Part shown: positions 4,938-63,793 of the stretch, piece after piece | Layout of the letters: the number at the start of each line of letters is the position of its first letter | How positions within the stretch are numbered: position 1 is the stretch's first letter | IMG/VR virus record: IMGVR_UViG_3300036940_000232 | DNA from: a virus | DNA length: 64,000 nucleotides | Strand: one strand, 5' to 3' | Notes under the pieces: model-generated | What the model was told of the DNA's origin: nothing | The model's input: the letters and a program-made list of their open reading frames with translations, nothing else | Databases searched by the model: none | Program-made: the position numbers and the translations under genes

Positions 4938-5851
4938 GCCTCTTCCTCTGATACAGGTATAGCTCTATAAGCTAAAACTTTCATCTCGTATCCGCTTGAT
5001 ATAGTTATTTCATGTGTAACTTCTTCGACTTTATATACTTCTTCATCAAATCGAATAAGACCGCCGGCCTCAACCTTAGGTGTTCCAAATATTTCAAAGT
5101 ATATATAATATAATTGCCCTTCTATTTTAGATGTAGAATCTTTAAACTTAAAAACTTCATCAGTTACGAATGTATTTACATATACATCTTCTTGAATAAA
5201 ATCCTCATCAGCAGAATAAAATATCAAATTCTGTTGGTTCTGTATTCTCATACGAATAGGTTTAGATGTCTCATCTTTTATTAGCTCGATAATTTCATCC
5301 GCCACTTCATATGCGGTTTTACCTTCTGTTGTGATAAAGTTACTGAACTCTGTATCTGCAGTATATTCTGGAATTTGACAGTATACATCTGTAAATCCGT
5401 ATGTTGAAACTAACGCAAAATAATCAGATAATGATCCTATCTTTTTATAATCAGGATTAGTAATTTTAGATTTAGTAAATAAATATCTTTCTAAACGGTC
5501 ACCTTTGAGTTCCCATTTAGTATTCATCCCATCGATTGTATATGATACATCATTTATTCGTACATATTGCCAACCTGACCATAATGTAGAATCACCAGAC
5601 CATCCAAAATTATACTGTAAATAATCTCCTTCGACTATTACAGTATTATCTGGTAGATTCCACAATGTGAGTGTAAAAGTATCAGTTGAAGAGTCAATAT
5701 GGTCATATAACTTTAACTCGATATCTACAACTTCATTATCGATTTTTAAAGTTTGGTATTGGTCTACTTGTGGTGGCTCATCAACTGATGTAACTTCCTC
5801 GATTATATCGTGAATAATTTCTACTTTAATCTCACAAAAATCCAATACCAT
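4934..5851 (-). CDS. Baseplate hub protein
   Basis: 305 aa upstream of the spike; TFTLTLWNLP and G.P....GG.I...YKVEEVTH patterns. Confidence 0.65.
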   Translation of the reverse strand: MVLDFCEIKVEIIHDIIEEVTSVDEPPQVDQYQTLKIDNEVVDIELKLYDHIDSSTDTFTLTLWNLPDNTVIVEGDYLQYNFGWSGDSTLWSGWQYVRINDVSYTIDGMNTKWELKGDRLERYLFTKSKITNPDYKKIGSLSDYFALVSTYGFTDVYCQIPEYTADTEFSNFITTEGKTAYEVADEIIELIKDETSKPIRMRIQNQQNLIFYSADEDFIQEDVYVNTFVTDEVFKFKDSTSKIEGQLYYIYFEIFGTPKVEAGGLIRFDEEVYKVEEVTHEITISSGYEMKVLAYRAIPVSEEEA

Positions 5852-5853
5852 AT

Positions 5854-7485
5854 TTAAGCTCCTGCTGTGTTTACAATCTTACGCTGATTTCCTAACATAT
5901 CTCTTGAGAATGCAAATATCTTCATGTATCCACCGAGCATCCATCCTGCAATAAATACATTTACTTTAGTTGTTGGATCTGAAAATCCCCAAGCATCTTT
6001 AACGTCCTCAGTTCTATTTTCTTTTCCTCTTCCAGTAAAGTCAGCATCAAAATCTGGATGGATATTTAATCTTCCAATAAAGAATTCATAATCACCAGAT
6101 ACAGGTACAGATGTAATTAGTTGTTTCCCACCATTAATATTAGCGTATACTTTAACAGAATACATATCTGCTAAATTACGTGCCCATACATGTGAGGAAA
6201 CTGCATCCTGTGACACTTGATAGTTTCCGCTCCTTAAACTTGGTTCTGGATCAGTGTGACTGAACCAATCTTTATTTCCAGATCGTACTTCTGATAATAC
6301 TTCTTTTTTCTTAATATATTCAGTTACAGAATTTGTAATATCCATTTCATACTGATACCATACATTATATAATGAAGATACTAATGAGATATCATTATCA
6401 GGGTCGACATCTGTGAATAATGGAACGCCAGTAAAGTTAAATTGAGGTTTCCATTCAACGTTATCGTGTTGAGTGACTTCAACATTTATAGTTGGGAATG
6501 ACACAGTGTACCATAGTGGATCGCCATTTGCATCTACACTTTCATCGTAATTCCCGTAGTATGCAGACCAAAATCTAAATCCAATAGTACTTGTGCCAGG
6601 CATCGTTAATGAAATAACGTCTGTATCTTCAATATAGTCAGCGTGGTCTTCGTGAAGATTGCTTGATTTCTTTTCATAATCTTCTATGTATTTTCTGAAT
6701 AATACACCGAAACTATTTTCAGGCCCAATCGTTTTAGTTAATATTCTAGCTCCACTACTTAATATATTATCATTAAATCTAATCTGACCATCAGTTTGCA
6801 CACTGTCATACCATAATGTAGTATCAGTATCATCAGTAGCTTCTGATGTGAATGATAATCCTGCAAGCTCAGTCGAATCTATAATATCCCAACCAATATC
6901 TGAGAACTTAACGATTTTCGCTTGAATTGAACAATTGACAATTTCTCTACTATCTTTATCATGCGATAGTGATAAATTAGTCATCGCTAAATTATCTAAA
7001 TATGTATCGAGCGGGCTGGATGTTGTTAATGTAAATATACGATTATTATTTTTAATATATTCAAGTGCTTGAATAAATTGCTCTATTGTAAAGCTCGTTC
7101 CATTACCTTCAACAAATTCTGAAATATCAACTGTATCAGATTCTGCCACTTGGGTAGCTTCTTCAGTTGTTAATCTTCTGACAACAATTTCATTACCAAC
7201 AATTAATTCTTCAAGTCCATTGAATAAATTCTCATTCATTTTAATATCGAATGATATTGATGCAGGAGATATATTTCCAAATTGTGAACGCGATTCTCCT
7301 CTAATAGTATTACGACTTGTGACTGTTCTTTTCTGCGAAAATTGAATATTTTGAACTGTTGGTATAGTAAACCTATGTAGATCGCCATCTTCATCTTCGT
7401 AGGAAAGTTCAGTAATGGCTGGGCCGCCATTACGCTGAATCTTATGTAATACATTATCATCGTCGTTATAATATATTGAATTCAT
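5854..7485 (-). CDS. Tail tube initiator/baseplate-proximal protein
   Basis: Follows the tape measure gene; N-terminal half resembles tube-initiator folds; mainly synteny. Confidence 0.45.
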   Translation of the reverse strand: MNSIYYNDDDNVLHKIQRNGGPAITELSYEDEDGDLHRFTIPTVQNIQFSQKRTVTSRNTIRGESRSQFGNISPASISFDIKMNENLFNGLEELIVGNEIVVRRLTTEEATQVAESDTVDISEFVEGNGTSFTIEQFIQALEYIKNNNRIFTLTTSSPLDTYLDNLAMTNLSLSHDKDSREIVNCSIQAKIVKFSDIGWDIIDSTELAGLSFTSEATDDTDTTLWYDSVQTDGQIRFNDNILSSGARILTKTIGPENSFGVLFRKYIEDYEKKSSNLHEDHADYIEDTDVISLTMPGTSTIGFRFWSAYYGNYDESVDANGDPLWYTVSFPTINVEVTQHDNVEWKPQFNFTGVPLFTDVDPDNDISLVSSLYNVWYQYEMDITNSVTEYIKKKEVLSEVRSGNKDWFSHTDPEPSLRSGNYQVSQDAVSSHVWARNLADMYSVKVYANINGGKQLITSVPVSGDYEFFIGRLNIHPDFDADFTGRGKENRTEDVKDAWGFSDPTTKVNVFIAGWMLGGYMKIFAFSRDMLGNQRKIVNTAGA

Positions 7486-19321: not shown

Positions 19322-20728
19322 TTATTGTGATTTGCTCATAAAGTCAATAAATGCTTTAGTAGCGTCTCTGCCAGTTAACTCTTTCTTTGCTACTTCAATT
19401 GTCTCTTCGACGTCTGGAGCTGAAAGTTCAACTGTAGATTCTTTCTTTACGGATTTGCGCTTTGCACCAACTGTTGGAGTCTTAAGTCTCTCAACTGTCT
19501 CGATGTATGCACCGAGTTGTGCTATTCCCATATCAGCCAGGAATTCCTGATCTGCATTTGGATCTGCTGACATTGCTACTCCTAAGAGTCTGTCATGCTC
19601 CGCGTTAATCATTGTTTCGTTCTCTGCCTTAAGTACAGATACTTCAGCGCTTAATGCGGCCTTCTCAACCTGTAATGCTTCAATCTTTGCATTTGCGTCG
19701 TCAATAAGACCCTTAAGCTCAGCGATTGCGTCGTCGTGGCTTGAAGCTTCGACTTCTACTTCTTCAACTGTCTCTGCTGATGCTTCAACTTCAACTTCCT
19801 CTGCAACCTCTTCTACAACTTCTTCTGTAGATGCTTCGACCTCTGTCTCCTCGACTTCTACTTCCTCAGTAGATGCCTCAACTTCTTCGACCTCTTCAGT
19901 TACTTCCTCTGTTGATGCTTCGACTTCAACGTCTTCAACAATCTCTTCTGATGCAGCCTCAACCTCTTCAACGGTTTCCTCTACAACTTCCTCAGTAGAT
20001 GCTTCGATTTCTACTTCAACTTCGACTTCTGCTACCTCTGATGATGCTGCGATTTCTGTAACCTCAGGCTCTTCGGTAACTTCAATATTCTCTTTTGTGC
20101 TCATTTCTGTTTCACCCTTTTCAAATAAAGAATTCCACTCCTCTTGAGCCTTCCTGAAAGATTCGATAGCTGCAACAAACTTCTGGCATGCATCGTATTT
20201 CTCTGCATCATCGCTGTATTGTTCGCAATCAACTTCAGGGTTCTCAATTATATTCTCGGACATGCTAGTTTCTCCTTCTTTGAAATCCTTGTCAAGCATG
20301 CAAGTCCTGCAAGCAGGGTTACGTACTAAACTGATTTCCTTTGGAGAAAAGATTTCTGTAGCAACACGTCTAACTACATCAAGTCTTACAAGTGCGCCAA
20401 TACTTAATCCACGCTTCTCGCCTGACTTAACAGCTTCAATTGACGCTGGGTGTCTTAATACACCTTTAGTAACCATGAACCCAAGTTCTGTTTCGGCAGT
20501 ACTTAATATAGTACCGACAGTACCAAGTTTATGTTCACATAAAATGTCAACACCTTCAAATGCTTTAGCAGCGGCACGTATTACCTCTCTTGGGTAGAAA
20601 GCTATATTGCCGTTTGCGTCTGTCCAGACACCTTCTTCTAATGCTGCACCTGAGAAATATAAAAGGCCGTCTTTCTCCTCATATGAAGAGAACTGAATTC
20701 CCATTATTATTTCATCATTTGATGTCAT
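19322..20728 (-). CDS. Prohead protease fused to acidic scaffold
   Basis: N-terminal HK97-like protease (EH, GLSIG, EISLV..PA) followed by Glu-rich repeats. Confidence 0.85.
   Translation of the reverse strand: MTSNDEIIMGIQFSSYEEKDGLLYFSGAALEEGVWTDANGNIAFYPREVIRAAAKAFEGVDILCEHKLGTVGTILSTAETELGFMVTKGVLRHPASIEAVKSGEKRGLSIGALVRLDVVRRVATEIFSPKEISLVRNPACRTCMLDKDFKEGETSMSENIIENPEVDCEQYSDDAEKYDACQKFVAAIESFRKAQEEWNSLFEKGETEMSTKENIEVTEEPEVTEIAASSEVAEVEVEVEIEASTEEVVEETVEEVEAASEEIVEDVEVEASTEEVTEEVEEVEASTEEVEVEETEVEASTEEVVEEVAEEVEVEASAETVEEVEVEASSHDDAIAELKGLIDDANAKIEALQVEKAALSAEVSVLKAENETMINAEHDRLLGVAMSADPNADQEFLADMGIAQLGAYIETVERLKTPTVGAKRKSVKKESTVELSAPDVEETIEVAKKELTGRDATKAFIDFMSKSQ
19730..20080 (-). 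repeat. Tandem EVEA(S/A)xEEV peptide repeats in the scaffold
   Basis: About 7-8 imperfect copies in the translation. Confidence 0.85.
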
Positions 20729-36861: not shown

Positions 36862-37091
36862 GTAAGATGCAACAGACAAAGAACGCAGACGGCACATTTG
36901 ATTTCACGAATGTAGATCCTGAAGTGGCGTTCTGGATGGCGTATTGTATGAAGTACTATGCCAGAAATGGTGCCGAATCAAACGCATACTCGTTCAAACG
37001 TGCCATTGAAATTGTCAATGAGAAGATTGAGACAGGTGAAGTTCCGGATGAGTACTTCAAGAGTTCAACAACTGTATCGGAGGCTCTATGA
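36858..37091 (+). CDS. Hypothetical protein
   Basis: Coupled. Confidence 0.55.
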   Translation: MSKMQQTKNADGTFDFTNVDPEVAFWMAYCMKYYARNGAESNAYSFKRAIEIVNEKIETGEVPDEYFKSSTTVSEAL

Positions 37092-37492
37092 AATTGACGG
37101 ATAGTGCCGAAATAAACGATAGGCTGATGAGTCAGCTTCTCGTAAAATATCCCGATGTTAAATGGAGTTTGCGGACAAGGTTCGACGTACTTAGATGGAC
37201 GTACGAAGTCACAGCGAAGTGGGAAGACGGCCCATCAGTCGATGACCTAATGAATGTACTCAAAGAGGTTAAGAAGACATTGCCAACTGATAAAGCTGTC
37301 TTTGTAACATCTGAAAGAGACTATAGTACAGAGGTTTTACTCAATGAGGCGCGCGCAGTTGCCAAGAATGAGTGGATACTTCACGACATAAATCAGATAA
37401 ATATCCGGTATATTGAGGTGCGAGGAGTCACTTTGGAGCGCTTTGCAAGGGATAATTTACACTTTAAGACAATTAGCGGTGCTAAAACATAG
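37088..37492 (+). CDS. LPD29-like domain protein
   Basis: WS.R....V..KWEDGPS...R.YS motif. Confidence 0.55.
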   Translation: MKLTDSAEINDRLMSQLLVKYPDVKWSLRTRFDVLRWTYEVTAKWEDGPSVDDLMNVLKEVKKTLPTDKAVFVTSERDYSTEVLLNEARAVAKNEWILHDINQINIRYIEVRGVTLERFARDNLHFKTISGAKT

Positions 37493-37503
37493 TTGCGCAC
37501 CGC

Positions 37504-37540
37504 AACCTTTATATAACTTGAACACATATAGTATATTACC
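37504..37540 (+). promoter_or_regulatory. Promoter of the tRNA/ncRNA cluster
   Basis: CAACC-TTTATATA just upstream of the first tRNA-like RNA. Confidence 0.7.
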
Positions 37541-37548
37541 AACAAATT

Positions 37549-37678
37549 GTGCCGGTAGCTCAGTCAGGCAGAGCGCTAAAATTTCCGTATACGCCTGTTC
37601 AAACCAAACGGTTTGTGTAGTACACGGTTACTTCGTCTTGTAAACGAGAGGTCAGTGGTTCAAATCCACTCCGGCACG
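37549..37678 (+). ncRNA. tRNA-Thr(TGT)-like RNA with a Y-like stem inserted in the anticodon arm
   Basis: Intact acceptor, D and T arms; CT-TGT-AA loop kept; about 55-nt hairpin insert carrying TGTAG-N7-TTACTTC. Confidence 0.8.
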
Positions 37679-37681
37679 TTA

Positions 37682-37753
37682 GAGGTGTGTGCAGAATGCG
37701 GTTACTTCAGAAATGGTTTGAAATGCACAACCGCATTCGTCTATTCACACCTC
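37682..37753 (+). ncRNA. Y-like hairpin RNA 1
   Basis: Two stems with an internal loop; TGCAG-N7-TTACTTC. Confidence 0.75.
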
Positions 37754-37760
37754 GTAGCAT

Positions 37761-37896
37761 GTGGGAATAGCTCAACAGGCAGAGCGTCAGCACCAATAAA
37801 GCCCGCTATCGCCAATTGAAAGCGTAAGCTTTCCGTAGATTGCGGATACTTCATGAACCGAGCTGAAGGTTAGCAGTTCGAGTCTGCTTTCCCACT
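37761..37896 (+). ncRNA. tRNA-scaffold RNA with a Y-like stem replacing the anticodon loop
   Basis: GTGGGAA/TTCCCAC acceptor, D and T arms, TCAGC/GCTGA stem; CGTAG-N7-ATACTTC. Confidence 0.8.
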
Positions 37897-37899
37897 TAC

Positions 37900-37971
37900 G
37901 CAGTGTGTAGCGAGCAGATACTTCAATGATATGCAGATATGACAACCGTTCTGCTTGCGTCGATTCACTGC
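37900..37971 (+). ncRNA. Y-like hairpin RNA 2
   Basis: TGTAG-N7-ATACTTC with a complementary 3' strand. Confidence 0.75.
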
Positions 37972-38010
37972 TAATACGAACACAAATAGAAGCATATAAA
38001 GAATAAACCA

Positions 38011-38084
38011 TTGGGAGTGTGTAGGTGACGGTTACTTCATTGAAACTGAAACCGATAACACCGTCATCGCTTGTTCACTCCCAA
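38011..38084 (+). ncRNA. Y-like hairpin RNA 3
   Basis: TGTAG-N7-TTACTTC; TTGGGAGTG/CACTCCCAA closing stem. Confidence 0.75.
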
Positions 38085-38096
38085 TACCAATCATTT

Positions 38097-38225
38097 GCGG
38101 AGGTTGCCCAGCCAGGCAAGGCGCCAGCATAATAGTGCGCTCTCGCCTTTCCCATGTTTTGCATGGTGTAGATAGCGCTTACTTCAGGGAGCTGGATTTC
38201 GGCGGTTCAAATCCGCCCCTCTGCA
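38097..38225 (+). ncRNA. tRNA-scaffold RNA with a Y-like stem replacing the anticodon loop
   Basis: GCGGAGG/CCTCTGC acceptor, CCAGC/GCTGG stem; TGTAG-N7-TTACTTC. Confidence 0.8.
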
Positions 38226-38247
38226 CTAAATATAATGGAGGATTAAT

Positions 38248-38703
38248 ATGGTTAAGAACTGTTTACTAACACCAAGAATTCACAAGTATTGGAAAAGTGC
38301 TGACAGTGATTGTGCTATATTAACTCCAATACCTATCAAGATGGGAGTTATCGATGTACCTTGGGCACTCATTCATGTAATAAGTGGCAATAGGTATTAT
38401 CAACCGATGGAATACGAAATGCTTGAAGCTAAAATGCTTTATCCAAATACACGTTTTGAAACAGATTACGGTTGGGAAAAATGTAATTTGCATGATATAA
38501 TGGAAGATTGTGTAGAAAGAAGCTCAGAAGTACGTGGGTTCACATTCAGACATAACAATGAAACTATTATGCAAGTAACTGTTGATTCATGGATCCGTGG
38601 TTTATTATCACTTGAGCGTGCTCAATATATAGATATACATCAGTTATCTCCAGCTCAAAACTTTGAGTGGGATATTTACAGACAACGTGCTCTCATGAGT
38701 TAG
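38248..38703 (+). CDS. Hypothetical protein
   Basis: GGAGG RBS; 3' end overlaps tRNA-Pro. Confidence 0.6.
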   Translation: MVKNCLLTPRIHKYWKSADSDCAILTPIPIKMGVIDVPWALIHVISGNRYYQPMEYEMLEAKMLYPNTRFETDYGWEKCNLHDIMEDCVERSSEVRGFTFRHNNETIMQVTVDSWIRGLLSLERAQYIDIHQLSPAQNFEWDIYRQRALMS

Positions 38704-40192: not shown

Positions 40193-40265
40193 GCTCGTAT
40201 AGCTCAAGTAGTAGAGCGAGGCACTTGTAATGCCTAGGTTCCGGATGCAATTTCCGGTACGAGCT
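40193..40265 (+). tRNA. tRNA-Thr(TGT)
   Basis: Cloverleaf; T-loop TGCAATT. Confidence 0.9.
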
Positions 40266-41234: not shown

Positions 41235-41307
41235 TGGCGTATAGTTCAGGCAGTAGAACGGTTCGTTTACACCGAACAGGTCGCAGGTGCAATTCCTGCT
41301 GCGCCAA
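41235..41307 (+). tRNA. tRNA-Val(TAC)
   Basis: Cloverleaf; T-loop TGCAATT. Confidence 0.9.
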
Positions 41308-50799: not shown

Positions 50800-52353
50800 T
50801 TGGGTAAATTTAATAAAAAAGCAACATTAGAACAGTCAATGGCTAGGCATCCAGATGCAATAGTCAATCATGAAGGTGCCCTTGCGTATTCGATGTCTGA
50901 AAAGACAAAGCTGATGACCATTGCAGTTACGTGTCTGATTGGTGAATCAAAATTCTATGAGTCACCAGGCGCAGCAGATGCTAACCTCAGCAATGCAGTC
51001 GATGCAGTCCTTCGAACAGATCCAGAATTTGTATTAAAGTTAGCAGCTTTCTGCAGAAATCAGATGTATCTTAGATCACTTCCGATTTACCTGCTTGTGA
51101 AGTATGCAAACTATACCGGCCCACGAGTAGAAGTTCCCAATGCATCAGCATATGTGCCACAGATCGTAAGGCGCGCTGATGAACTGACAGAAGTAGTAGC
51201 AGCTCAGATGAACATGTATCCTAAAAAACGCAGGAAGTCTGGCGGAGTTCAGCTCCCAAGGATACTTAAAAACGGACTTGCTGAAGCTCTCAATAACTTC
51301 TCAGAATATAATCTCGCTAAGTATGACAGACCTGGCGATGTGAAAATCAAGGACGTTCTGTTCCTGACACATCCAAAACCAAAAGATGCAGCTCAGCAGG
51401 AAATCTTCGACAAGATTGCAGCAGGTATGCTTGACACACCTGAAACTTGGGAAGTCCTGTTGTCAGATTGGCAGTCAAAGTTCCCATCCAAGAGGGATGC
51501 ATGGATATATATCATTGATAATGTATTCAACAAAGATGGAAAGGTCAACAACTACATGGCGATGTTGAGGAACCTGAACAATATTCTGGAAGAAGATGTT
51601 CCTCCAAAATATATAGACAAAGTAGCAGAGATGTTACAGGATCCACAAGCGGTAAAGGCTTCAAAGCAATTCCCATACAGGTTCTTATCTGCATACAACA
51701 CAATCAAGTTTGCAAACAGAAGCAGAACAGAAGTAGATAAACTTAAGTCTGCTATTGAAAGAGCGCTCGATATTTCTGTCGAGAATGTTCCACAGTTACC
51801 AGGCAGCACACTTGTACTGATTGATGTATCTAGCTCAATGCAGGGTTGTACAGTCAGTAGGAAATCCGTTGTGAGATGTGCAGACATCGCATGTGTTTTC
51901 GGTGTAATGACTCCAAGAATCGTTGAGAAACTTCCAACAGTAGTTGCATTCGGAACTGATTACAGACAGATTCAGATTGCAGACAGCGACAGAATGCTTG
52001 AGACAGCCAATAAGATAATGAACCTTTCAATTGGTATGGGCACAAATCTTGCAGGCCCGCTTCAAGAAGTAACTAGAAAAGGTATTGTCTATGACAGAAT
52101 AATTATTTTGTCAGATATGCAGTGCCACAGGTACGGAGCGGAAGCGCTTGAGCAGTATCGCAGACAGGTCAATCCTAATGCATACATTTATTCTGTAGAC
52201 CTCTACGGATATGGAAGTGCATTGATGCCAGAAAATTCAAAGAATCTATGCCTAATGGGTGGATACAGTGATAAGATATTCAACTTCATCACTTCATTCG
52301 AAGCAAACCCAGCCACCATGGTTGAAAGGGTGGATGCATGGACGACGAACTGA
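50800..52353 (+). CDS. Ro60/Rsr RNA-binding protein (TROVE + vWA)
   Basis: N.EG..AY, R...YLRS.P, L.KY, TWE, Y.AMLRNL, QFPYRF.SAY and vWA DVSSSM...SDMQ; TTG start with AGGAGG RBS. Confidence 0.95.
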   Translation: MGKFNKKATLEQSMARHPDAIVNHEGALAYSMSEKTKLMTIAVTCLIGESKFYESPGAADANLSNAVDAVLRTDPEFVLKLAAFCRNQMYLRSLPIYLLVKYANYTGPRVEVPNASAYVPQIVRRADELTEVVAAQMNMYPKKRRKSGGVQLPRILKNGLAEALNNFSEYNLAKYDRPGDVKIKDVLFLTHPKPKDAAQQEIFDKIAAGMLDTPETWEVLLSDWQSKFPSKRDAWIYIIDNVFNKDGKVNNYMAMLRNLNNILEEDVPPKYIDKVAEMLQDPQAVKASKQFPYRFLSAYNTIKFANRSRTEVDKLKSAIERALDISVENVPQLPGSTLVLIDVSSSMQGCTVSRKSVVRCADIACVFGVMTPRIVEKLPTVVAFGTDYRQIQIADSDRMLETANKIMNLSIGMGTNLAGPLQEVTRKGIVYDRIIILSDMQCHRYGAEALEQYRRQVNPNAYIYSVDLYGYGSALMPENSKNLCLMGGYSDKIFNFITSFEANPATMVERVDAWTTN

Positions 52354-57307: not shown

Positions 57308-58585
57308 ATGGTAACACTAAACGAAGTTTTGGAACGTGTAAATGGATATATAGTTGGCGGTGCAGTAAGAGATAAACTTCTCGGACTTAAGCCAAAAGAT
57401 TATGATGTCTGTACACATATTCTACCTGAAGCAGTATGGCAAATGTTTACCGGACATTGTTATATAGTTGGTGAGAAGTTCGGAACTGTCGGAGTGCATA
57501 CTACAGATGTTGGTGATGTTGAAATCACAACGATGCGTAAAGAGGTAATTCCAGGTCGTAAACCAGTAGTCAAGTGGACAACTAATCTTGAAGAGGATTT
57601 GTCTCGCAGAGATTATACAATCAATGCAATGGCGCTCGATATAGATGGTAATCTGATTGATCCATTTGGCGGCGCTGATGATTTGTTTGCAGGGATACTT
57701 AGAGCGGTCGGTGATGCCAATGAGCGTATAAGGGAAGACCCGCTTAGAATCATGCGTGGAGTAAGGTTTATTGTTAAATATAACCTGCAACCTCAGCGCG
57801 ATTTAACAGAGGCTCTTTGTTACAATACACTTGGCGGACTGAGCAAGGAACGGATCAGAGACGAATTCATGAAAATTCTTGAAGTCAATCCTGTTTACGG
57901 ACTCAAGTGGCTCAAATATATTGGTGTCATAAAAGAGATATCTCCTACGATAGATTCATATTCTCACTATGACCAGAATCCCATATTCCATCCAGAGCTT
58001 GATGTATGGAATCATACACTTCTTGGTATTGAAGATGGATTCAGTAAAGGATTCCCAGTACTTTCACTATTGGCGCACTTGTTGCACGATTGTGGAAAGC
58101 CACAAGCATGGGATGGCTGCCATTATAATGGGCATGAGAATATCGGCGGCGATTATGCAGAAGAATGGATGAGGCATTTCTGTTTCTCAAATGCAGAAAT
58201 AGATGCAGTTAAGTTTGCAGTTAAGAATCATATGAAAGTTTGCAAGTGGAATGAGATGCGAACGTCTAAGAAAATTACAATCGCTCAAAACCCTAATTTG
58301 ACAACGCTCTTGCATGTTCATGAAATGGATTCTGTGGGCCGTCCACTAAAGGAATGTTCAGTAGATAGCATCTTGGAATTCAAAAGTAACATAAAAGAAA
58401 AAGTAAACTGCTACTTGAATGGATTTGAAATCATGGCACAGCTAGAGCTGCCGCCAGGCCCAGGAGTCGGCTATATACTCAATCACTTGATTGAATTGCA
58501 AGTCGAAGGAAAAATCAATGATAGAGATGAAGCTATCAAGTATCTAGCGACAGAGTTCGATTGGAAGGTTACGAATGACATTTAA
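57308..58585 (+). CDS. cca: Class II tRNA nucleotidyltransferase (CCA/polyA polymerase family) with HD domain
   Basis: VGGAVRD.LLG..P.DYD, EDL.RRD.TINAMA, EDPLR.MRG.RF, ERI..E and H...LHD.GK. Confidence 0.9.
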   Translation: MVTLNEVLERVNGYIVGGAVRDKLLGLKPKDYDVCTHILPEAVWQMFTGHCYIVGEKFGTVGVHTTDVGDVEITTMRKEVIPGRKPVVKWTTNLEEDLSRRDYTINAMALDIDGNLIDPFGGADDLFAGILRAVGDANERIREDPLRIMRGVRFIVKYNLQPQRDLTEALCYNTLGGLSKERIRDEFMKILEVNPVYGLKWLKYIGVIKEISPTIDSYSHYDQNPIFHPELDVWNHTLLGIEDGFSKGFPVLSLLAHLLHDCGKPQAWDGCHYNGHENIGGDYAEEWMRHFCFSNAEIDAVKFAVKNHMKVCKWNEMRTSKKITIAQNPNLTTLLHVHEMDSVGRPLKECSVDSILEFKSNIKEKVNCYLNGFEIMAQLELPPGPGVGYILNHLIELQVEGKINDRDEAIKYLATEFDWKVTNDI

Positions 58586-60086: not shown

Positions 60087-60959
60087 ATGGTAAGAAAAAT
60101 TTCAGTATCAAAGATGGGTAGCGCAGGAACAGAAGTAGAGATCACAGGGAAGCCAACATACAGGCAGATTGTTGCAGCCGCAGGATTCAGCACATTCAAG
60201 GCAATCATGGCCAACACACTTGGTTATGTAAACCCTGATCACGAAGTTGACGATTCAGTCACCATGCTTGTCCTTGCAGCACCTAAGTTCGATGCAGGAT
60301 ATGGGGCAATCCCATCCATTGAGGTTGAGGATGATGACGGAAACGTTTATACTCTCACTCCATCAGAACCAGTACCTGCAGAGCCAGAGCCAACTGCAAC
60401 AGCAGTAGCTGCAGCTCCAGCAACTAGAACAATCTCTGTATCAAAGATGGGAAGTTCCGGAACAACCGTAACAATCACATCAACAACAACATACAGACAG
60501 GCAGTTGCAATGGCTGGCTTCGAAACATTCAAGGCAATCATGTCCAATACCGGCGGATATGTAAACCCTGATGACGAAGTAGACCCAAGTGTAACAATGC
60601 TTGTACTTGCAGCACCTAAGTTCGACGCCGGCTACGGCGCCATTCCTTCCATCGAAGTCGAAGATGACGATGGGAATGTGTACACACTTACACCACAGGA
60701 GCCAGTTGCAACAGCAACAGCAACAGTAGCTGCACCTGCAGCAACCAGAACAATTTCCGTTTCAAAGATGGGAAGCTCTGGAACAACTGTCACAATTACA
60801 GCGACAACTACTTACAGGCAGGCAGTTGCGCTCGCAGGATTTGAGACATTCAAAGCAATCATGTCAAACACTGGCGGATACGTTAACCCAGACGATGAGG
60901 TTGACCCAAGTGTAACCATGCTTGTTCTTGCTGCACCAAAGTTCGACGCAGGAAACTAA
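60087..60959 (+). CDS. Tri-repeat ubiquitin-like (beta-grasp) precursor
   Basis: Three ~70-aa repeats, each ending LVLAAPKFDAG; two shared linkers; C-terminus DAG-N. Confidence 0.85.
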   Translation: MVRKISVSKMGSAGTEVEITGKPTYRQIVAAAGFSTFKAIMANTLGYVNPDHEVDDSVTMLVLAAPKFDAGYGAIPSIEVEDDDGNVYTLTPSEPVPAEPEPTATAVAAAPATRTISVSKMGSSGTTVTITSTTTYRQAVAMAGFETFKAIMSNTGGYVNPDDEVDPSVTMLVLAAPKFDAGYGAIPSIEVEDDDGNVYTLTPQEPVATATATVAAPAATRTISVSKMGSSGTTVTITATTTYRQAVALAGFETFKAIMSNTGGYVNPDDEVDPSVTMLVLAAPKFDAGN

Positions 60960-60992
60960 GTGAGCCGGAAGCCCCGCTCACTCTTTTATTTA
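60960..60992 (+). terminator. Hairpin plus T-rich tract between the Ubl and E2 genes
   Basis: GTGAGC...GCTCAC stem followed by TCTTTTATTT. Confidence 0.5.
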
Positions 60993-61004
60993 TAGGAGGT
61001 AAAT

Positions 61005-61712
61005 ATGCAAGCGCTTGAAGAACATATACAGACAGTAGAATCTGCAAACTCAGACAATTCTGCTGCAATACGAGAATACAAAATTATAGAATCAAGTCCA
61101 CACTTCCACGATGTAAAGATTGTGGAAGATAAAATAATCTTTACAACAGTGCCTATTCATCTGAATAGTCCAGCAGGAGATTCGCAGACAGTCAATCTTG
61201 GTCGCCTTGAGATTCACATTTATAAGAATGGAAATTACAGGGTATACAGAGATAGAACTTCAGATAGAGATCAAGATCTACCAAGGTCAGGAATTCATCC
61301 GCACGTTGGGTCTGGAAATTCAATATGTCAAGGTAATGCAAATGAGATGTCTCAACTTGCAACGGATAGACAACTTGCAATGCTTGCCACCTTTATCTAT
61401 GAGTTCCTACACCACTATAACATCAGCTCTCCATACTGGAAGCCATACTTCGCAGTGCCATGTATATCATGCGAACACAGAAATACCGCCAGATGCAATT
61501 TCTGCATATGCAATAACTGTGGCAACAGAAGAGGAGACAAGTGTATTGGATGCACTCAGAAGGGAATGACAACTGCAAATACTGCACACAGATATCTTGT
61601 AAGTATCCTTGAGAACAAGCGTTCAGAAGTAGATGAGGATGATTACATTGACTTTGCAGACAGACTTGCAGCATATATTAACAACAGAATGGAGGAGATC
61701 GATAATGTTTAG
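61005..61712 (+). CDS. Prokaryotic E2/UBC-like protein with C-terminal 8-Cys Zn domain
   Basis: HPHV.....ICQGN active-site motif; L..YN..SPY. Confidence 0.75.
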   Translation: MQALEEHIQTVESANSDNSAAIREYKIIESSPHFHDVKIVEDKIIFTTVPIHLNSPAGDSQTVNLGRLEIHIYKNGNYRVYRDRTSDRDQDLPRSGIHPHVGSGNSICQGNANEMSQLATDRQLAMLATFIYEFLHHYNISSPYWKPYFAVPCISCEHRNTARCNFCICNNCGNRRGDKCIGCTQKGMTTANTAHRYLVSILENKRSEVDEDDYIDFADRLAAYINNRMEEIDNV

Positions 61713-62556
61713 AATTTTTGTATTAGCTGAAGCATACGGTAAGATGCTCAGAATGCTTGACTTGATGGATAAAGAAATAGGTGCGCTCATGCTTGGACGC
61801 ATTCACAACGGTGACGCATATGTAGAGGATGTAGTTATCACAAAGCAAGGTGTAACTGGCGCATCCGTCGAGTTTGATGAGGAAGGAATTGACCTTGCAA
61901 CTATGAGAGCAATGGAACAGGGAAAGGTTGTAATTGGATGGTTCCACTCACACGTAAATATGAAGGCATTCTGGTCTGGAACAGATATGAAAACAATCAA
62001 TGACCTGATTGCTCATACTGAAGATTACCTAGTTTCAATCGTATCAAATAAGAAATACGAACATGTAGGGAGAATCGATTACTACGGACAGTCCACATTT
62101 GGAAGAGAGCGCCAGTTTGTAGACAATATCCCAGTAATCCCAGTACTCAATGATCCAGCTGAGTATGATGCCGAAATCAAAGCTGCAATTGCAGAGAATG
62201 TAACAGAAAAGTATATATACTACTCAAAAGGTAAGTATGGAAAGAATAAGGGTAGTAAAACTCATACAGTTATTCATGGCAATCAGTCAGTGTTTGACGA
62301 TAACGGTAAGTACAGAGGATACAGGAAAGATGAGTATGTTGACGACGAAGATGAATTAGGAGTCACATATCAGTTAACTGATGAAGAAATGGATGATATA
62401 CTTGAAGAGCTTAAACAGGAACAGCTAGAAGCTAAAATGGACAAGACAGCTATGCAATTCACAGAAGATGACGCTGAAGTTGCATGGAAAGAGATTGACA
62501 GACTCATGCTCTTAGGAATGTCAGAAGAACAAGCAAAAGCACTAGTACTTGGGTGA
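61705..62556 (+). CDS. JAB/MPN+ (JAMM) metallopeptidase
   Basis: E(IG)...HSH-x7-S-x2-D; start moved to MFRIF at 61705. Confidence 0.9.
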   Translation: MFRIFVLAEAYGKMLRMLDLMDKEIGALMLGRIHNGDAYVEDVVITKQGVTGASVEFDEEGIDLATMRAMEQGKVVIGWFHSHVNMKAFWSGTDMKTINDLIAHTEDYLVSIVSNKKYEHVGRIDYYGQSTFGRERQFVDNIPVIPVLNDPAEYDAEIKAAIAENVTEKYIYYSKGKYGKNKGSKTHTVIHGNQSVFDDNGKYRGYRKDEYVDDEDELGVTYQLTDEEMDDILEELKQEQLEAKMDKTAMQFTEDDAEVAWKEIDRLMLLGMSEEQAKALVLG

Positions 62557-62561
62557 TATAA

Positions 62562-63083
62562 ATGGAAATGGGATTTGACGACTTTGTTACATTCTACAAT
62601 GCATACAAAGGCGACGCAGCACAAACAAATGCAATAAGAGCAATCGACACTATTATTCCGGATGCCATAAATGATATGGTACATTACGTGGCATACAAGC
62701 AGTACGATGTACCGTTGAATCCCGAATGGGCAGATCTTTGTGATGAGTCCATATATAATAGTCAGAGCGCTAGACTTAGAATAGGCCCATTTCTCATGAC
62801 TGTTTGGTCTGAAAGCGCGGCTTATGTCGAGTATTTGCCAGATAATGCAATGATGCAGGAAAGACTTGCACTTGGAGAAGACGATGAGTTCTATAGAGCT
62901 GATAGCGGATTCATGCCGGTATCATGGGACAGCAGGATTGTCATCACATCATTTGGTGAAGTAATACCAAGAGGCGTCGCAGGAGATGAATACATCAATG
63001 CACTTCGCGAAGGTAGACTGAACGATGCAGTGATGCAGATGTTGACAATCATGAGAAAAGAAGTAATCGATTGGAGTAGATAA
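62562..63083 (+). CDS. Hypothetical protein inside the Ubl operon
   Basis: GGTGA RBS; lies between JAB and E1. Confidence 0.7.
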   Translation: MEMGFDDFVTFYNAYKGDAAQTNAIRAIDTIIPDAINDMVHYVAYKQYDVPLNPEWADLCDESIYNSQSARLRIGPFLMTVWSESAAYVEYLPDNAMMQERLALGEDDEFYRADSGFMPVSWDSRIVITSFGEVIPRGVAGDEYINALREGRLNDAVMQMLTIMRKEVIDWSR

Positions 63084-63085
63084 TA

Positions 63086-63793
63086 ATGGCAGATGAAGAG
63101 ATTGAGGTTAATTACCTCAGACAATTAGATTGGTTTAATCCAACTACAATGGAAGCACCTACCGTTCATATTATTGGTTGTGGAGGAATCAATTCCTTTA
63201 CAGCTTTTTATCTTGCGCAGATGGGAATAAAGAAGCTTGTGCTTTGGGACTACGATGAAGTCGAAGAGCATAACATTCCAAACCAGAATTTCCTTTTGGA
63301 ACATATTGGAATGAAGAAGACGACCGCACTTGCAAAACTTATCAAAGATAAAGTAGGCATTGAAGTTAAAGTTAAGGATAGATTCTTCAGTGAAGATTCA
63401 AAAATTACTGACGACAATGCTATTGTGATTGTTGGTACCGATAACATCTCATCCAGAAAAACAGTGTATGAACACTGCAAAGGTAATGAGAAAGTAAAAA
63501 TGTTCATAGATGGTCGTCTAGGCGGACTTGCATTCAATATATTTACAATCAATCCGCACGAAGAATCTGACCAAGAACTCTACGAAGAAAACTTGTTCGA
63601 AGAAGGTGAATCAGACGGTCTTCCATGCACAGCGAAATCAATCATATTCGTTGGTGCTCACATTGGTGCACTTATTTGTCAGCAAGTATTTGCTATAATG
63701 ACTGAGCGCCCAGTTACGAAGAACGCATGTTATGATCACCTGAACAATCTTATTGATATAGATGGTAAGGCGATTATGTATGGTACAGCATAA
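63086..63793 (+). CDS. ThiF/E1-like adenylyltransferase
   Basis: RQ, IIGCGG, DYD.V..HN..NQ, K, GTDN..SR, DGR.G and candidate catalytic PCT. Confidence 0.9.
   Translation: MADEEIEVNYLRQLDWFNPTTMEAPTVHIIGCGGINSFTAFYLAQMGIKKLVLWDYDEVEEHNIPNQNFLLEHIGMKKTTALAKLIKDKVGIEVKVKDRFFSEDSKITDDNAIVIVGTDNISSRKTVYEHCKGNEKVKMFIDGRLGGLAFNIFTINPHEESDQELYEENLFEEGESDGLPCTAKSIIFVGAHIGALICQQVFAIMTERPVTKNACYDHLNNLIDIDGKAIMYGTA

What the first reader, a model, noticed from the sequence alone, without database searches (positions are those of the whole stretch)
37549..38225. Six-member covarying RNA family, three copies grafted into tRNA scaffolds (candidate Ro60 partner RNAs)
All six share YGYAG-N7-WTACTTC with an exactly 7-nt spacer that differs in each copy (TACACGG, AATGCGG, ATTGCGG, CGAGCAG, GTGACGG, ATAGCGC). 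Each spacer is largely matched by a compensating strand followed by a G-Y-Y..T-T loop. Three are free hairpins. In three the hairpin is circularly permuted and replaces or invades the anticodon arm of a tRNA with native 5'/3' acceptor ends. Established: bacterial YrlA Y RNAs join a Ro-binding stem to a tRNA-like module with the acceptor end closed. Inference: these are Y-like ligands of the Ro60 gene at 50800, with inverted topology that leaves them open to RNase P/Z processing and CCA addition. The classical GNCGAA-type Ro motif is not visible, so the assignment is tentative.
Basis: partly seen in the sequence, partly recalled or inferred. Interest (0 to 1): 0.85.

Follow-up and report, generated by a model that had tools for sequence, protein, structure and literature searches.

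The report
Viral Y RNAs, three with tRNA ends
The six repeats are real small-RNA genes of the known family of Y RNAs that partner the Ro60 protein, and three of them are an undescribed rearranged form that keeps the free ends of a normal tRNA.

Summary
Six same-strand copies of YGYAG-N7-WUACUUC lie in 37549-38225, behind one promoter-like site. Each N7 pairs with a partner strand that is followed by CGYYNNUY.

The same "handle" (outer stem P1, asymmetric internal loop, 7-bp stem P2, UUACUUC) is found in 68 of 80 viral and 55 of 80 cellular Ro60 loci chosen by protein alone. All 289 matches are on the Ro60 strand. It was absent from 84 control phage loci.

The handle is the Ro60-binding end of the published YrlA/YrlB Y RNAs. 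Relatives carry the literal published GNCGAAG motif at the YGYAG position, and UUAC is the published YUAY.

The three hairpins are YrlB-like. The three tRNA-shaped copies are circular permutations of YrlA, with the acceptor stem open and the handle closed. A model built only from eight such copies beside other Ro60 genes scores them 99, 61 and 50 bits.

This open form recurs in about 10% of Ro60 loci, including crAss001 and HGTV-1, where it is annotated as "tRNA-Asp + intron". I found no description of it in print.

This is a known kind of RNA in a new variant. Binding, transcription and end processing are untested. Earlier reports of this scan noted similar Ro60-linked RNA arrays on other DNA.

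The parts
37492..37533 (+). Promoter-like block with a TATA-box-like TTTATATA at 37508-37515, about 33 nt upstream of copy 1.
   Evidence: The only part of the region conserved in the nearest held virus record, G001 (88% over 42 nt). TTTATATA recurs 20 times in the window, mostly in intergenic spacers ahead of genes. That it acts as a promoter is inferred.
37549..37678 (+). Copy 1: acceptor-open, tRNA-shaped Y RNA. Acceptor 37549-55 / 37671-77, D arm 37558-74, P2 3' strand 37585-91, loop CGCCUGUU 37592-99, closed P1 37600-15, UGUAG 37616-20, P2 5' strand 37621-27, UUAC 37628-31, anticodon-like arm 37632-48 (loop CUUGUAA), AGGUC 37649-53, T arm 37654-70.
   Evidence: R2, a model built without any window sequence, scores it 99.4 bits, E 6e-23, full length. 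MFE fold z = -3.3. Coordinates.
37679..37760 (+). Copy 2: free hairpin Y RNA (YrlB-like). P1 37682-89 / 37746-53, UGCAG 37690-94, P2 37695-701 / 37731-37, UUAC 37702-05, inner hairpin 37706-22, loop CGUCUAUU 37738-45.
   Evidence: R1 57.0 bits, E 1e-13. MFE fold z = -4.6. The outer limits are inferred from the ends of the neighbouring tRNA-like copies.
37761..37896 (+). Copy 3: acceptor-open Y RNA. Acceptor 37761-67 / 37889-95, D arm 37770-85, P2 3' strand 37803-09, CGCCAAUU 37810-17, closed P1 37818-33, CGUAG 37834-38, P2 5' strand 37839-45, AUAC 37846-49, 5-bp arm with 10-nt loop 37849-68, T arm 37872-88.
   Evidence: R2 60.7 bits, E 2e-13. Two compensatory double changes in P1 among metagenome relatives.
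37897..37975 (+). Copy 4: free hairpin Y RNA. P1 37900-05 / 37966-71, UGUAG 37906-10, P2 37911-17 / 37951-57, AUAC 37918-21, CGUCGAUU 37958-65.
   Evidence: R1 53.3 bits, E 1e-12. One relative (run X5) lacks 37925-37984, so this copy is dispensable there.
38008..38090 (+). Copy 5: free hairpin Y RNA. P1 38010-19 / 38076-85, UGUAG 38020-24, P2 38025-31 / 38061-67, UUAC 38032-35, inner hairpin 38036-50, CGCUUGUU 38068-75.
   Evidence: R1 64.1 bits, E 1e-15. MFE fold z = -4.3.
38097..38225 (+). Copy 6: acceptor-open Y RNA. Acceptor 38097-103 / 38218-24, discriminator A 38225, D arm 38105-23, P2 3' strand 38137-43, CGCCUUUC 38144-51, closed P1 38152-66, UGUAG 38167-71, P2 5' strand 38172-78, UUAC 38179-82, arm with GGAG tetraloop 38183-96, T arm 38201-17.
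   Evidence: R2 49.6 bits, E 1e-10. The single-sequence MFE fold is not distinctive (z = -0.6), so support comes from the family model and alignment A3.
50800..52353 (+). Ro60 gene (TROVE ring plus Ro60-type vWA domain), the presumed protein partner. It lies 12.6 kb downstream on the same strand.
   Evidence: Pfam TROVE E 9.5e-23 and vWA_Ro60 E 1e-13. No handle copy lies next to it.
57308..58585 (+). Virus-encoded tRNA nucleotidyltransferase (CCA-adding type). It could tail the acceptor-open copies, none of which encodes CCA.
   Evidence: Pfam PolyA_pol head E 1e-28 and tRNA_NucTran2_2 E 2e-6. The link to these RNAs is inferred.

Best explanation
The array is a small-RNA operon that encodes the virus's Y RNAs, the RNA partners of its Ro60 protein. 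All six copies share one handle: an outer stem P1, an asymmetric internal loop (5' YGYAG, 3' CGYYNNUY), a 7-bp stem P2 and the turn UUAC-UUC. By homology this handle is the Ro60-binding end of bacterial and phage YrlA/YrlB RNAs.

Copies 2, 4 and 5 carry only a short anticodon-arm-like hairpin on the handle, so they are YrlB-like. Copies 1, 3 and 6 carry a full tRNA-like body, as YrlA does, but circularly permuted. The handle is a closed hairpin inserted between the D arm and the anticodon-arm equivalent. The acceptor stem is formed by the RNA's own 5' and 3' ends.

Inferred steps: one transcript starts about 10 nt before copy 1. RNase P and RNase Z cut at the ends of the tRNA-shaped copies. 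The same cuts free the hairpin copies packed between them (gaps of 3 to 11 nt, apart from a 38-nt spacer between copies 4 and 5). The open copies then receive CCA, possibly from the virus's own nucleotidyltransferase. Ro60 binds the handle, and the tRNA-like body recruits tRNA-recognising factors or protects the RNA, within the virus's RNA repair and quality-control kit.
For: Shown by computation:
- Six copies lie on one strand within 680 nt, behind a promoter-like block that is conserved in a relative.
- P1 and P2 covary. In the hairpin alignment 14 of 15 pairs show double changes and 0 of 500 shuffles reach the observed pairing. In the acceptor-open alignment the acceptor is 99% paired, the D arm 98%, P2 91% and the T arm 100%, each with 0 of 500 shuffles.
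- R1 finds the handle in 68 of 80 viral and 55 of 80 cellular Ro60 loci chosen by protein only. All 289 hits are on the Ro60 strand. 84 of 100 control phage loci have no hit.
- Seven arrays found by a TROVE-blind DNA pattern scan sit directly upstream of ORFs that Pfam calls TROVE.
- Named phages carry the handle beside Ro60: MET23-P3, crAss001, CcrColossus, Mvi-JY20, GiJojo and phiLo.
- At the YGYAG position relatives carry GGCGAAG, the literal published GNCGAAG, along with GGUGAAG, GGCGUAG and GCCGUAG.
- R2, built without window sequences, scores copies 1, 3 and 6 at 99, 61 and 50 bits. Resident tRNAs score at most 42.
- In other loci the open copies abut hairpin copies with gaps of 1 to 28 nt. 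Examples are L186 (28-96, 100-224, 226-302), L152 (1441-1515, 1520-1646, 1653-1721) and L139 (6493-6596, 6598-6723).

From papers:
- The GNCGAAN0-1G motif overlaps nucleotides important for Rsr binding in D. radiodurans Yrn1.
- YUAY is conserved in YrlA RNAs.
- YrlA and YrlB are cut from one precursor.
- M. smegmatis YrlA is cut by RNase P and gains CCA in vivo (all PMC4201824).
Against: - There is no transcript, end-mapping or binding data. No RNA run holds the locus.
- The array is 12.6 kb from Ro60, whereas almost all other arrays abut the gene.
- R1 does not match the YrlA-type element beside the Ro gene of mycobacteriophage Myrna, which carries the published GNCGAAN0-1G and YUAY motifs, so that handle is divergent. 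Rfam holds no YrlA model to test against.
- Copy 6 does not fold distinctively on its own.
- The window's copies lack the bulged U and the GG/CC pairs that most relatives have next to the loop.
- None of the three open copies encodes CCA.
Confidence: 0.85

Rival explanations
1. Copies 1, 3 and 6 are ordinary tRNA genes that carry introns. The insert is spliced out to give working tRNAs, and the hairpins are leftovers or mobile copies of the intron.
For: HGTV-1 carries a homologous 132-nt element that its depositors annotated as 'tRNA Asp (gtc) + Intron'. The host may be an archaeon, which would have a splicing endonuclease. Copy 1 keeps a correct 7-nt anticodon loop, CUUGUAA.
Against: - The insert lies between position 26 and the anticodon stem, and I could draw no bulge-helix-bulge at its borders.
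- Copies 3 and 6 have 10-nt and 4-nt loops and cannot decode.
- The same insert sequence is conserved in phages of bacteria, which lack the splicing endonuclease: crAss001 and several IMG/VR contigs.
- The same handle occurs open-ended with a closed acceptor, and as bare hairpins, always beside Ro60.
- ARAGORN calls none of the three. Rfam tRNA scores only part of copy 1, at 23.7 bits, below its threshold of 29.
Confidence: 0.04
2. The RNAs belong to the Y RNA family by descent, but in this virus they act without Ro60. They could, for example, be decoys or sponges for host tRNA-cutting defence nucleases or for tRNA-modifying enzymes, using the tRNA-like body and the anticodon-like hairpins.
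For: The array is unlinked from Ro60 and sits at the head of a 20-gene tRNA region. Every copy, including the short ones, keeps an anticodon-arm-like hairpin. Many relatives have a loop of the form CUGNUAA.
Against: The handle, not the tRNA part, is the most conserved feature. It is kept intact in all six copies, and a Ro60 gene is present on the same strand. No locus was seen where the handle family persists in a complete genome without TROVE. The two TROVE-less records are fragments, 13% and 16% complete.
Confidence: 0.08
3. The elements are cis-acting DNA or RNA repeats, such as terminators, attenuators or recombination or packaging sites, and not stable RNAs.
For: They are tandem, hairpin-forming and intergenic.
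Against: Compensatory changes preserve RNA pairing, including G-U pairs, on one strand only. The unpaired loop nucleotides are the most conserved part. Family members are spread over phages of at least six bacterial phyla, archaeal viruses and bacterial chromosomes, always co-oriented with Ro60.
Confidence: 0.02

Closest known systems
YrlA (Y RNA-like A) of Salmonella Typhimurium, Mycobacterium smegmatis and mycobacteriophages (Chen et al. 2014, PMC4201824; Wang et al. 2018, 10.1101/312249)
   Same: It has a Ro60-binding stem with a conserved 5'-strand motif (GNCGAAN0-1G, here YGYAG, with literal GGCGAAG in relatives). A conserved YUAY follows (here UUAC/AUAC). It also has D and T arms with tRNA consensus nucleotides and is linked to Ro60 genes in bacteria and phages.
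   Different: Published YrlA has the order handle, T arm, closed acceptor stem-loop, D arm, handle, and 'lacks a free CCA end'. Copies 1, 3 and 6 have the order acceptor, D arm, closed handle, anticodon-like arm, T arm, acceptor, as one piece with free ends. They also lie 12.6 kb from Ro60, outside the 4-kb limit used in the published search.
RNase P-cleaved, CCA-tailed M. smegmatis YrlA (PMC4201824)
   Same: It is a Y RNA whose tRNA-like module ends in an open 7-bp acceptor stem with a CCA tail while still bound to Rsr.
   Different: There the open acceptor arises after transcription by cutting a closed loop, which gives a two-piece RNA. Here it is written in the gene, which gives a one-piece RNA.
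YrlB (S. Typhimurium, M. smegmatis)
   Same: It is a short second Y RNA encoded next to YrlA. It carries the same 5' motif and is cut from the same precursor. Copies 2, 4 and 5 have this place and size.
   Different: No sequence-level comparison with published YrlB was possible here. The window's copies carry an anticodon-arm-like hairpin.
Circularly permuted tRNA genes (Cyanidioschyzon merolae, Soma et al. 2007, as cited in 10.1101/312249)
   Same: Gene order is permuted relative to the tRNA cloverleaf. YrlA has been likened to these pre-tRNAs.
   Different: Those are matured into working tRNAs. Here the unpermuted order is the unusual one for the family, and two of the three copies cannot decode.
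tRNA-like processing signals (MALAT1 mascRNA; tRNA punctuation of mitochondrial transcripts)
   Same: In the proposed mechanism, RNase P/Z cuts at tRNA-shaped units define the ends of neighbouring RNAs.
   Different: This is proposed here only from the tight spacing. It has not been shown.

Membership tests
Ro60-linked Y RNA handle family (YrlA/YrlB kind) | Helix formed with a conserved 5'-strand motif GNCGAAN0-1G. | tested here: inconclusive
   The literal motif is absent: the window has UGUAG, UGCAG and CGUAG. The same position in relatives shows a continuous spectrum: CGUAG 53, UGAAG 26, UGUAG 22, CGAAG 19 (GGCGAAG 11) in viral loci, and GCCGUAG 63, GUCGUAG 38 in cellular loci.
Ro60-linked Y RNA handle family (YrlA/YrlB kind) | Conserved YUAY after the stem strand. 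| tested here: met
   UUAC or AUAC in all six copies, exactly 7 nt after the loop motif. UUACUUC or AUACUUC in 124 of 144 viral copies.
Ro60-linked Y RNA handle family (YrlA/YrlB kind) | Encoded next to (within 4 kb of) a Ro60/TROVE gene and on the same strand. | tested here: not met
   The strand is the same, but the array is 12.6 kb upstream. The family as a whole meets the criterion: 68 of 80 viral and 55 of 80 cellular Ro60 loci, with all hits on the Ro60 strand. HGTV-1 also has two copies 3 kb away.
Ro60-linked Y RNA handle family (YrlA/YrlB kind) | Match to a family covariance model built from members beside Ro60 genes. | tested here: met
   R2 contains no window sequence and scores the open copies 99.4, 60.7 and 49.6 bits. 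R1 scores the hairpins 53 to 64 bits, but it includes them in its seed. R1 finds hundreds of independent members.
Ro60-linked Y RNA handle family (YrlA/YrlB kind) | Physical binding to Ro60. | not testable with these tools
   No RNA-protein test is available, and no RNA runs hold the locus.
Canonical YrlA | tRNA-like D and T arms with tRNA consensus nucleotides. | tested here: met
   D arm GCUCAG..GG.AGAGC and T arm GGUUCRAWUCC. Both covary across 11 copies.
Canonical YrlA | [quoted passage not shown] | tested here: not met
   In copies 1, 3 and 6 the acceptor stem is formed by the two ends and the handle is closed. Canonical closed-acceptor copies exist in other loci, for example L121:3786-3923.
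Canonical or intron-bearing tRNA | Called by tRNA finders, with a 7-nt anticodon loop and an intron with a bulge-helix-bulge or at position 37/38. | tested here: not met
   ARAGORN calls none of the three. Rfam tRNA scores 23.7 bits on a part of copy 1, below its threshold of 29. The loops are 7, 10 and 4 nt. The insert lies after position 26 and has no bulge-helix-bulge.

The most novel reading that the evidence does not exclude
A distinct class of one-piece Y RNAs with genuine tRNA ends exists in viruses of bacteria and archaea, and probably in some bacteria. These RNAs would be matured by RNase P and RNase Z and tailed with CCA like tRNAs. They would also act as punctuation that releases the hairpin Y RNAs packed between them. 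Through their free acceptor end they would couple Ro60 to the tRNA repair, CCA-adding or even aminoacylation machinery during infection.
Probability: 0.35. Interest if true: 0.7.

Novelty: new variant of a known kind. Interest (0 to 1): 0.5.

Why it matters
Y RNAs are the obligate partners of Ro60, but what their tRNA-like module does is unknown. The published view is that bacterial YrlA RNAs lack free tRNA ends, with one exception made by RNase P cleavage in M. smegmatis.

A recurrent, gene-encoded form with native tRNA ends would show that access to RNase P, RNase Z and the CCA-adding enzyme is selected for rather than accidental. It is present here in three copies, and also in crAss001, HGTV-1 and about a tenth of the Ro60 loci examined.

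It also gives simple constructs for testing what the tRNA module recruits. It explains some database entries annotated as 'tRNA with intron' and some unannotated gaps beside phage Ro60 genes. It extends Ro60/Y RNA particles to a virus that probably infects archaea. A public covariance model for the handle would annotate hundreds of such RNAs.

Tried and rejected
- Rfam gave no family at gathering score. At E up to 10 there was only a partial tRNA hit and a weak SpF41_sRNA match at 21.7 bits.
- Rfam also finds nothing on the Myrna YrlA-type element, so it holds no YrlA model and its silence means nothing.
- blastn of the region against 50,697 phage records gave no match.
- The nearest held virus record, G001, shares only the promoter block and has no array.
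- The raw pattern scan of IMG/VR returned mostly chance hits. One recurrent false positive is a coding motif, GTGTAG-TTGATGC-ATACTTC, which was removed by requiring the partner strand.
- My first regex screen for closed-handle copies picked up junctions between adjacent open-handle copies. These were removed by requiring an acceptor pairing. R2 hits of 50 to 63 bits in arrays are mostly such junctions.
- R1 does not detect Myrna's YrlA-type element. It detects HGTV-1 copies only weakly, at 15.6 and 12.1 bits; those copies were read by eye.
- The RNAalifold consensus used for R2 mis-drew P2, so R2 scores rest on sequence plus the acceptor, D and T pairs.
- Copy 1 as a recent graft into the resident tRNA-Thr(UGU) is rejected: the acceptor and T arm differ.
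- No RNA sequencing run holds the locus.
- The Annual Review on bacterial Ro60 (PMC10870794) and a paper I looked for under PMC5062991 are not held. I therefore cannot exclude that the open form is mentioned there.
- Complex prediction was not used, because it does not take RNA.
Full report
**1. Observation**

The stretch 37549-38225 is non-coding and lies between two small ORFs (37088-37492 and 38248-38703). With one mismatch allowed the window has 8 matches against 1.96 expected, and no shuffle in 100 reaches 8.

Each spacer has a complementary 7-mer (6 or 7 of 7 pairs) followed by CGYYNNUY. Three copies are hairpins: 5' flank (P1), YGYAG, P2, WUAC, a small inner hairpin starting UUC, P2', CGYYNNUY, 3' flank (P1'). 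Three copies have the same parts in permuted order inside a cloverleaf: acceptor 5' strand, D arm, linker, P2', CGYYNNUY, P1 closed by a 4-5 nt loop, YGYAG, P2, WUAC, anticodon-arm-like hairpin, variable loop, T arm, acceptor 3' strand.

ARAGORN calls none of the three. Rfam's tRNA model reaches only 23.7 bits on part of copy 1. Single-sequence folds recover the drawn structure for copies 1, 2, 4 and 5, with z from -2.7 to -4.6. The fold is not distinctive for copy 6.

**2. The same RNA elsewhere**

A TROVE-blind scan of IMG/VR with a 14-base version of the motif was followed by a filter for the partner strand. It recovered arrays of 2-5 copies in other viral contigs. In seven of these contigs the next ORF downstream is a TROVE protein by Pfam. 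In six more, TROVE lies elsewhere in the record.

An alignment of 17 hairpin copies from 12 sources (A1) gives 88% pairing against 59% in shuffles. Fourteen of 15 pairs have changes on both sides, and slid controls give 39-48%. The covariance model R1 built from A1 was then run on several sets of loci.
- **Viral Ro60 loci.** On 80 viral contigs chosen only for encoding a Ro60 relative, it finds 193 hits in 68 contigs, all on the Ro60 strand. Nearly all lie within a few hundred bases of the gene, with up to nine copies per array.
- **Cellular Ro60 loci.** On 80 cellular loci (Bacteroidota, Clostridia) it finds 96 hits in 55 loci, all on the Ro60 strand.
- **Control phage loci.** On 100 phage loci from the raw pattern scan, only 16 are hit, and 84 loci have none.
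- **Named phages.** Hits lie beside Ro60 in Xanthomonas phage MET23-P3 (4 hits; a divergent fifth copy scores 12.6 bits), Caulobacter phage CcrColossus (9), Microcystis phage Mvi-JY20, Streptomyces phage GiJojo, Thermus phage phiLo and Bacteroides phage crAss001.

**3. What it is**

The arrays mix short hairpins with long copies. In the long copies the P2 loop holds a T arm, a closed 7-8 bp acceptor-like stem-loop and a D arm, in that order. An example is L121:3786-3923. That is the published YrlA architecture (PMC4201824; 10.1101/312249).

The published conserved elements are GNCGAAN0-1G near the 5' end and YUAY. In this family the 7-mer before P2 runs through GGCGAAG, GGUGAAG, GGCGUAG, GGUGUAG and GGCGCAG in viruses, and GCCGUAG and GUCGUAG in bacteria. 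It is followed after 7 nt by UUAC or AUAC. So the window's YGYAG is a natural variant of the published Ro60-contact motif, and UUAC is the YUAY.

Rfam has no YrlA model. It finds nothing on the YrlA-type element beside the Ro gene of mycobacteriophage Myrna, which I read by eye (GCCGAACG ... UUAUCC, T arm, closed stem, D arm). R1 does not reach that actinophage element either, so the family is broad and its handle diverges between lineages.

**4. The acceptor-open form**

Copy 1 has the same modules as MET23-P3 copy 5, including the linker G-CUAAAAUYU after the D arm and the AGGUC loop before the T arm. It is opened at the acceptor instead of at P1.

A structure-aware screen found the same open form beside Ro60 in other contigs (L126, L127, L139, L185, L186, L190, L195) and in crAss001. 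Aligned with the window's three copies (A3), the acceptor is 99% paired with all 7 pairs covarying. The D arm is 98% paired, P2 91% (7 of 7 covarying) and the T arm 100%, each with 0 of 500 shuffles.

Model R2 was built only from the eight non-window copies. It scores copies 1, 3 and 6 at 99.4, 60.7 and 49.6 bits over its full length, while the window's real tRNAs reach at most 42. R2 finds two further clear members, L152:1520-1646 and L190:3953-4077.

In haloarchaeal virus HGTV-1, R2 gives 43 bits to a 132-nt element annotated 'tRNA Asp (gtc) + Intron'. By eye this element has the closed handle and UUACUUC. HGTV-1 also has two hairpin copies with GACGACG and GCGAG loops, one of them directly upstream of its Ro60. 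Possible open copies occur in bacterial chromosomes (Hymenobacter fodinae, L296), but these are less clear.

The open form is therefore recurrent, in about a tenth of loci. The published search discarded hits that overlapped tandem tRNAs and reported only hits within 4 kb of Ro60 (PMC4201824), which would have missed these. I found no description of the open form in the papers I could read.

**5. How it probably works**

*Shown:* the anatomy, the covariation and the genomic linkage.

*From the literature:*
- Ro60 contacts the 5' strand of the Y RNA stem at the motif position.
- YrlA and YrlB are cut from one precursor.
- YrlA is modified by TruB and DusA.
- M. smegmatis YrlA is cut by RNase P and gains CCA while bound to Rsr (all PMC4201824).

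*Inferred for this locus:*
- Transcription starts about 10 nt before copy 1, from the TTTATATA box at 37508. This block is the only part conserved in relative G001.
- RNase P and RNase Z cut at the tRNA-shaped copies. The gaps to the hairpin copies are 3, 7, 4 and 11 nt, so the same cuts release the hairpins.
- The same tight alternation of hairpin and open copy is seen in L186, L152, L139, L185 and L190.
- CCA is not encoded in the window's copies. The virus encodes its own CCA-type nucleotidyltransferase.
- Ro60 binds the handle. The role of the tRNA body is open: protection from exonucleases, recruitment of tRNA-recognising enzymes, or a tether to repair factors.
- In crAss001 the TROVE gene is in the early operon, expressed 0-10 min after infection (PMC8375218). 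This fits an early role.

**6. Natural variation**

Contigs from oil-field, subsurface, wastewater and bioreactor metagenomes hold the locus or close relatives. Their differences include two fully compensatory double substitutions in the closed P1 of copy 3. G-C to G-U changes occur in the acceptor of copy 1 and in P2 of copy 4. Other changes fall at the degenerate loop positions. One relative has a 60-nt deletion that removes the 3' part of copy 4.

**7. Host**

The evidence for an archaeal host:
- Ro60's best E-value, and the terminase's second-ranked record, in the phage collection are both to HGTV-1.
- TTTATATA boxes sit ahead of many genes.
- The habitats are rich in methanogens.
- A first-stage note reports a bulge-helix-bulge intron in a tRNA, which I did not test.

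Together these suggest an archaeal virus. Against this, the nearest cellular Ro60 proteins are bacterial. I treat the host as unsettled.

**8. Verdict**

The family is the known Y RNA (YrlA/YrlB) kind, not a new one. The three tRNA-ended copies represent a recurrent, apparently undescribed topological variant. All functional steps remain to be shown. Earlier reports of this scan had already noted Ro60-linked arrays of 'handle' RNAs that carry tRNAs or rearranged tRNA look-alikes on other DNA. My tests here were made independently of them.

Noticed in passing
L124:16971-17102 (HGTV-1, NC_021328 70440-70571); also L124:16899-16958 and 19838-19925: The HGTV-1 gene annotated 'tRNA Asp (gtc) + Intron' looks like an acceptor-open Y RNA. 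Two unannotated hairpin Y RNAs lie nearby, each behind a TTTAAGTA box. One is directly upstream of the Ro60 gene, and the others are next to RtcB.
   Followed up: partly
L122:5290-5900 (crAss001, gap between gp96 TROVE and gp95): The 900-nt unannotated gap after the TROVE gene holds at least four family copies, two of them acceptor-open (5477-5622 and about 5733-5872). The 5' loop is more divergent there (GUGUA).
   Followed up: partly
L011:8956-9085: A third topology. This handle copy has a complete normal-order tRNA in its P2 loop (anticodon CAU, Rfam tRNA 53 bits), joined through its acceptor stem.
   Followed up: partly
L206:1216-2411 (Caulobacter phage CcrColossus): Nine handle copies lie upstream of the TROVE gene. 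The annotated tRNA-Gln (1628-1695) lies inside one of them.
   Followed up: no
window, 20 sites, e.g. 26073, 27398, 29162, 37508, and 25874, 20857, 15854 on the - strand: TTTATATA boxes are preceded by A/G-rich or 'aacc' words and lie 30-45 nt ahead of start codons. They look like archaeal BRE/TATA promoters, which bears on the host.
   Followed up: partly
window 37925-37984: One wastewater relative (run X5) has a clean 60-nt deletion that removes the 3' half of hairpin copy 4. Copy number in the array is therefore variable.
   Followed up: no
window 37605-37713 and 38156-38258: There are weak full-length matches (21.7 and 18.9 bits, not significant) to Rfam SpF41_sRNA of Streptococcus. Its consensus also has GUAG...UUAC followed by a hairpin and a T arm, so it may be a distant relative of the Y RNA family.
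   Followed up: no
L121:3815-3830, L035, L011:8681-8695, L175, L160 and others: The hairpin after UUAC often has a 7-nt loop CUGNUAA (U33-like, A37/A38-like), even in short copies. An anticodon-arm mimic therefore seems to be a family feature.
   Followed up: no
window 40193-40265 and 41235-41307: The resident tRNA-Thr and tRNA-Val have unusual T loops (UGCAAUU), whereas the three Y RNA copies keep the canonical GGUUCRAAUCC.
   Followed up: no
window 60087-63793: A first-stage note reports a ubiquitin-like conjugation operon 8 kb downstream of Ro60. Earlier reports of this scan describe Ro60 plus handle RNAs beside Ubl/E1 genes in other genomes. I did not examine this.
   Followed up: no
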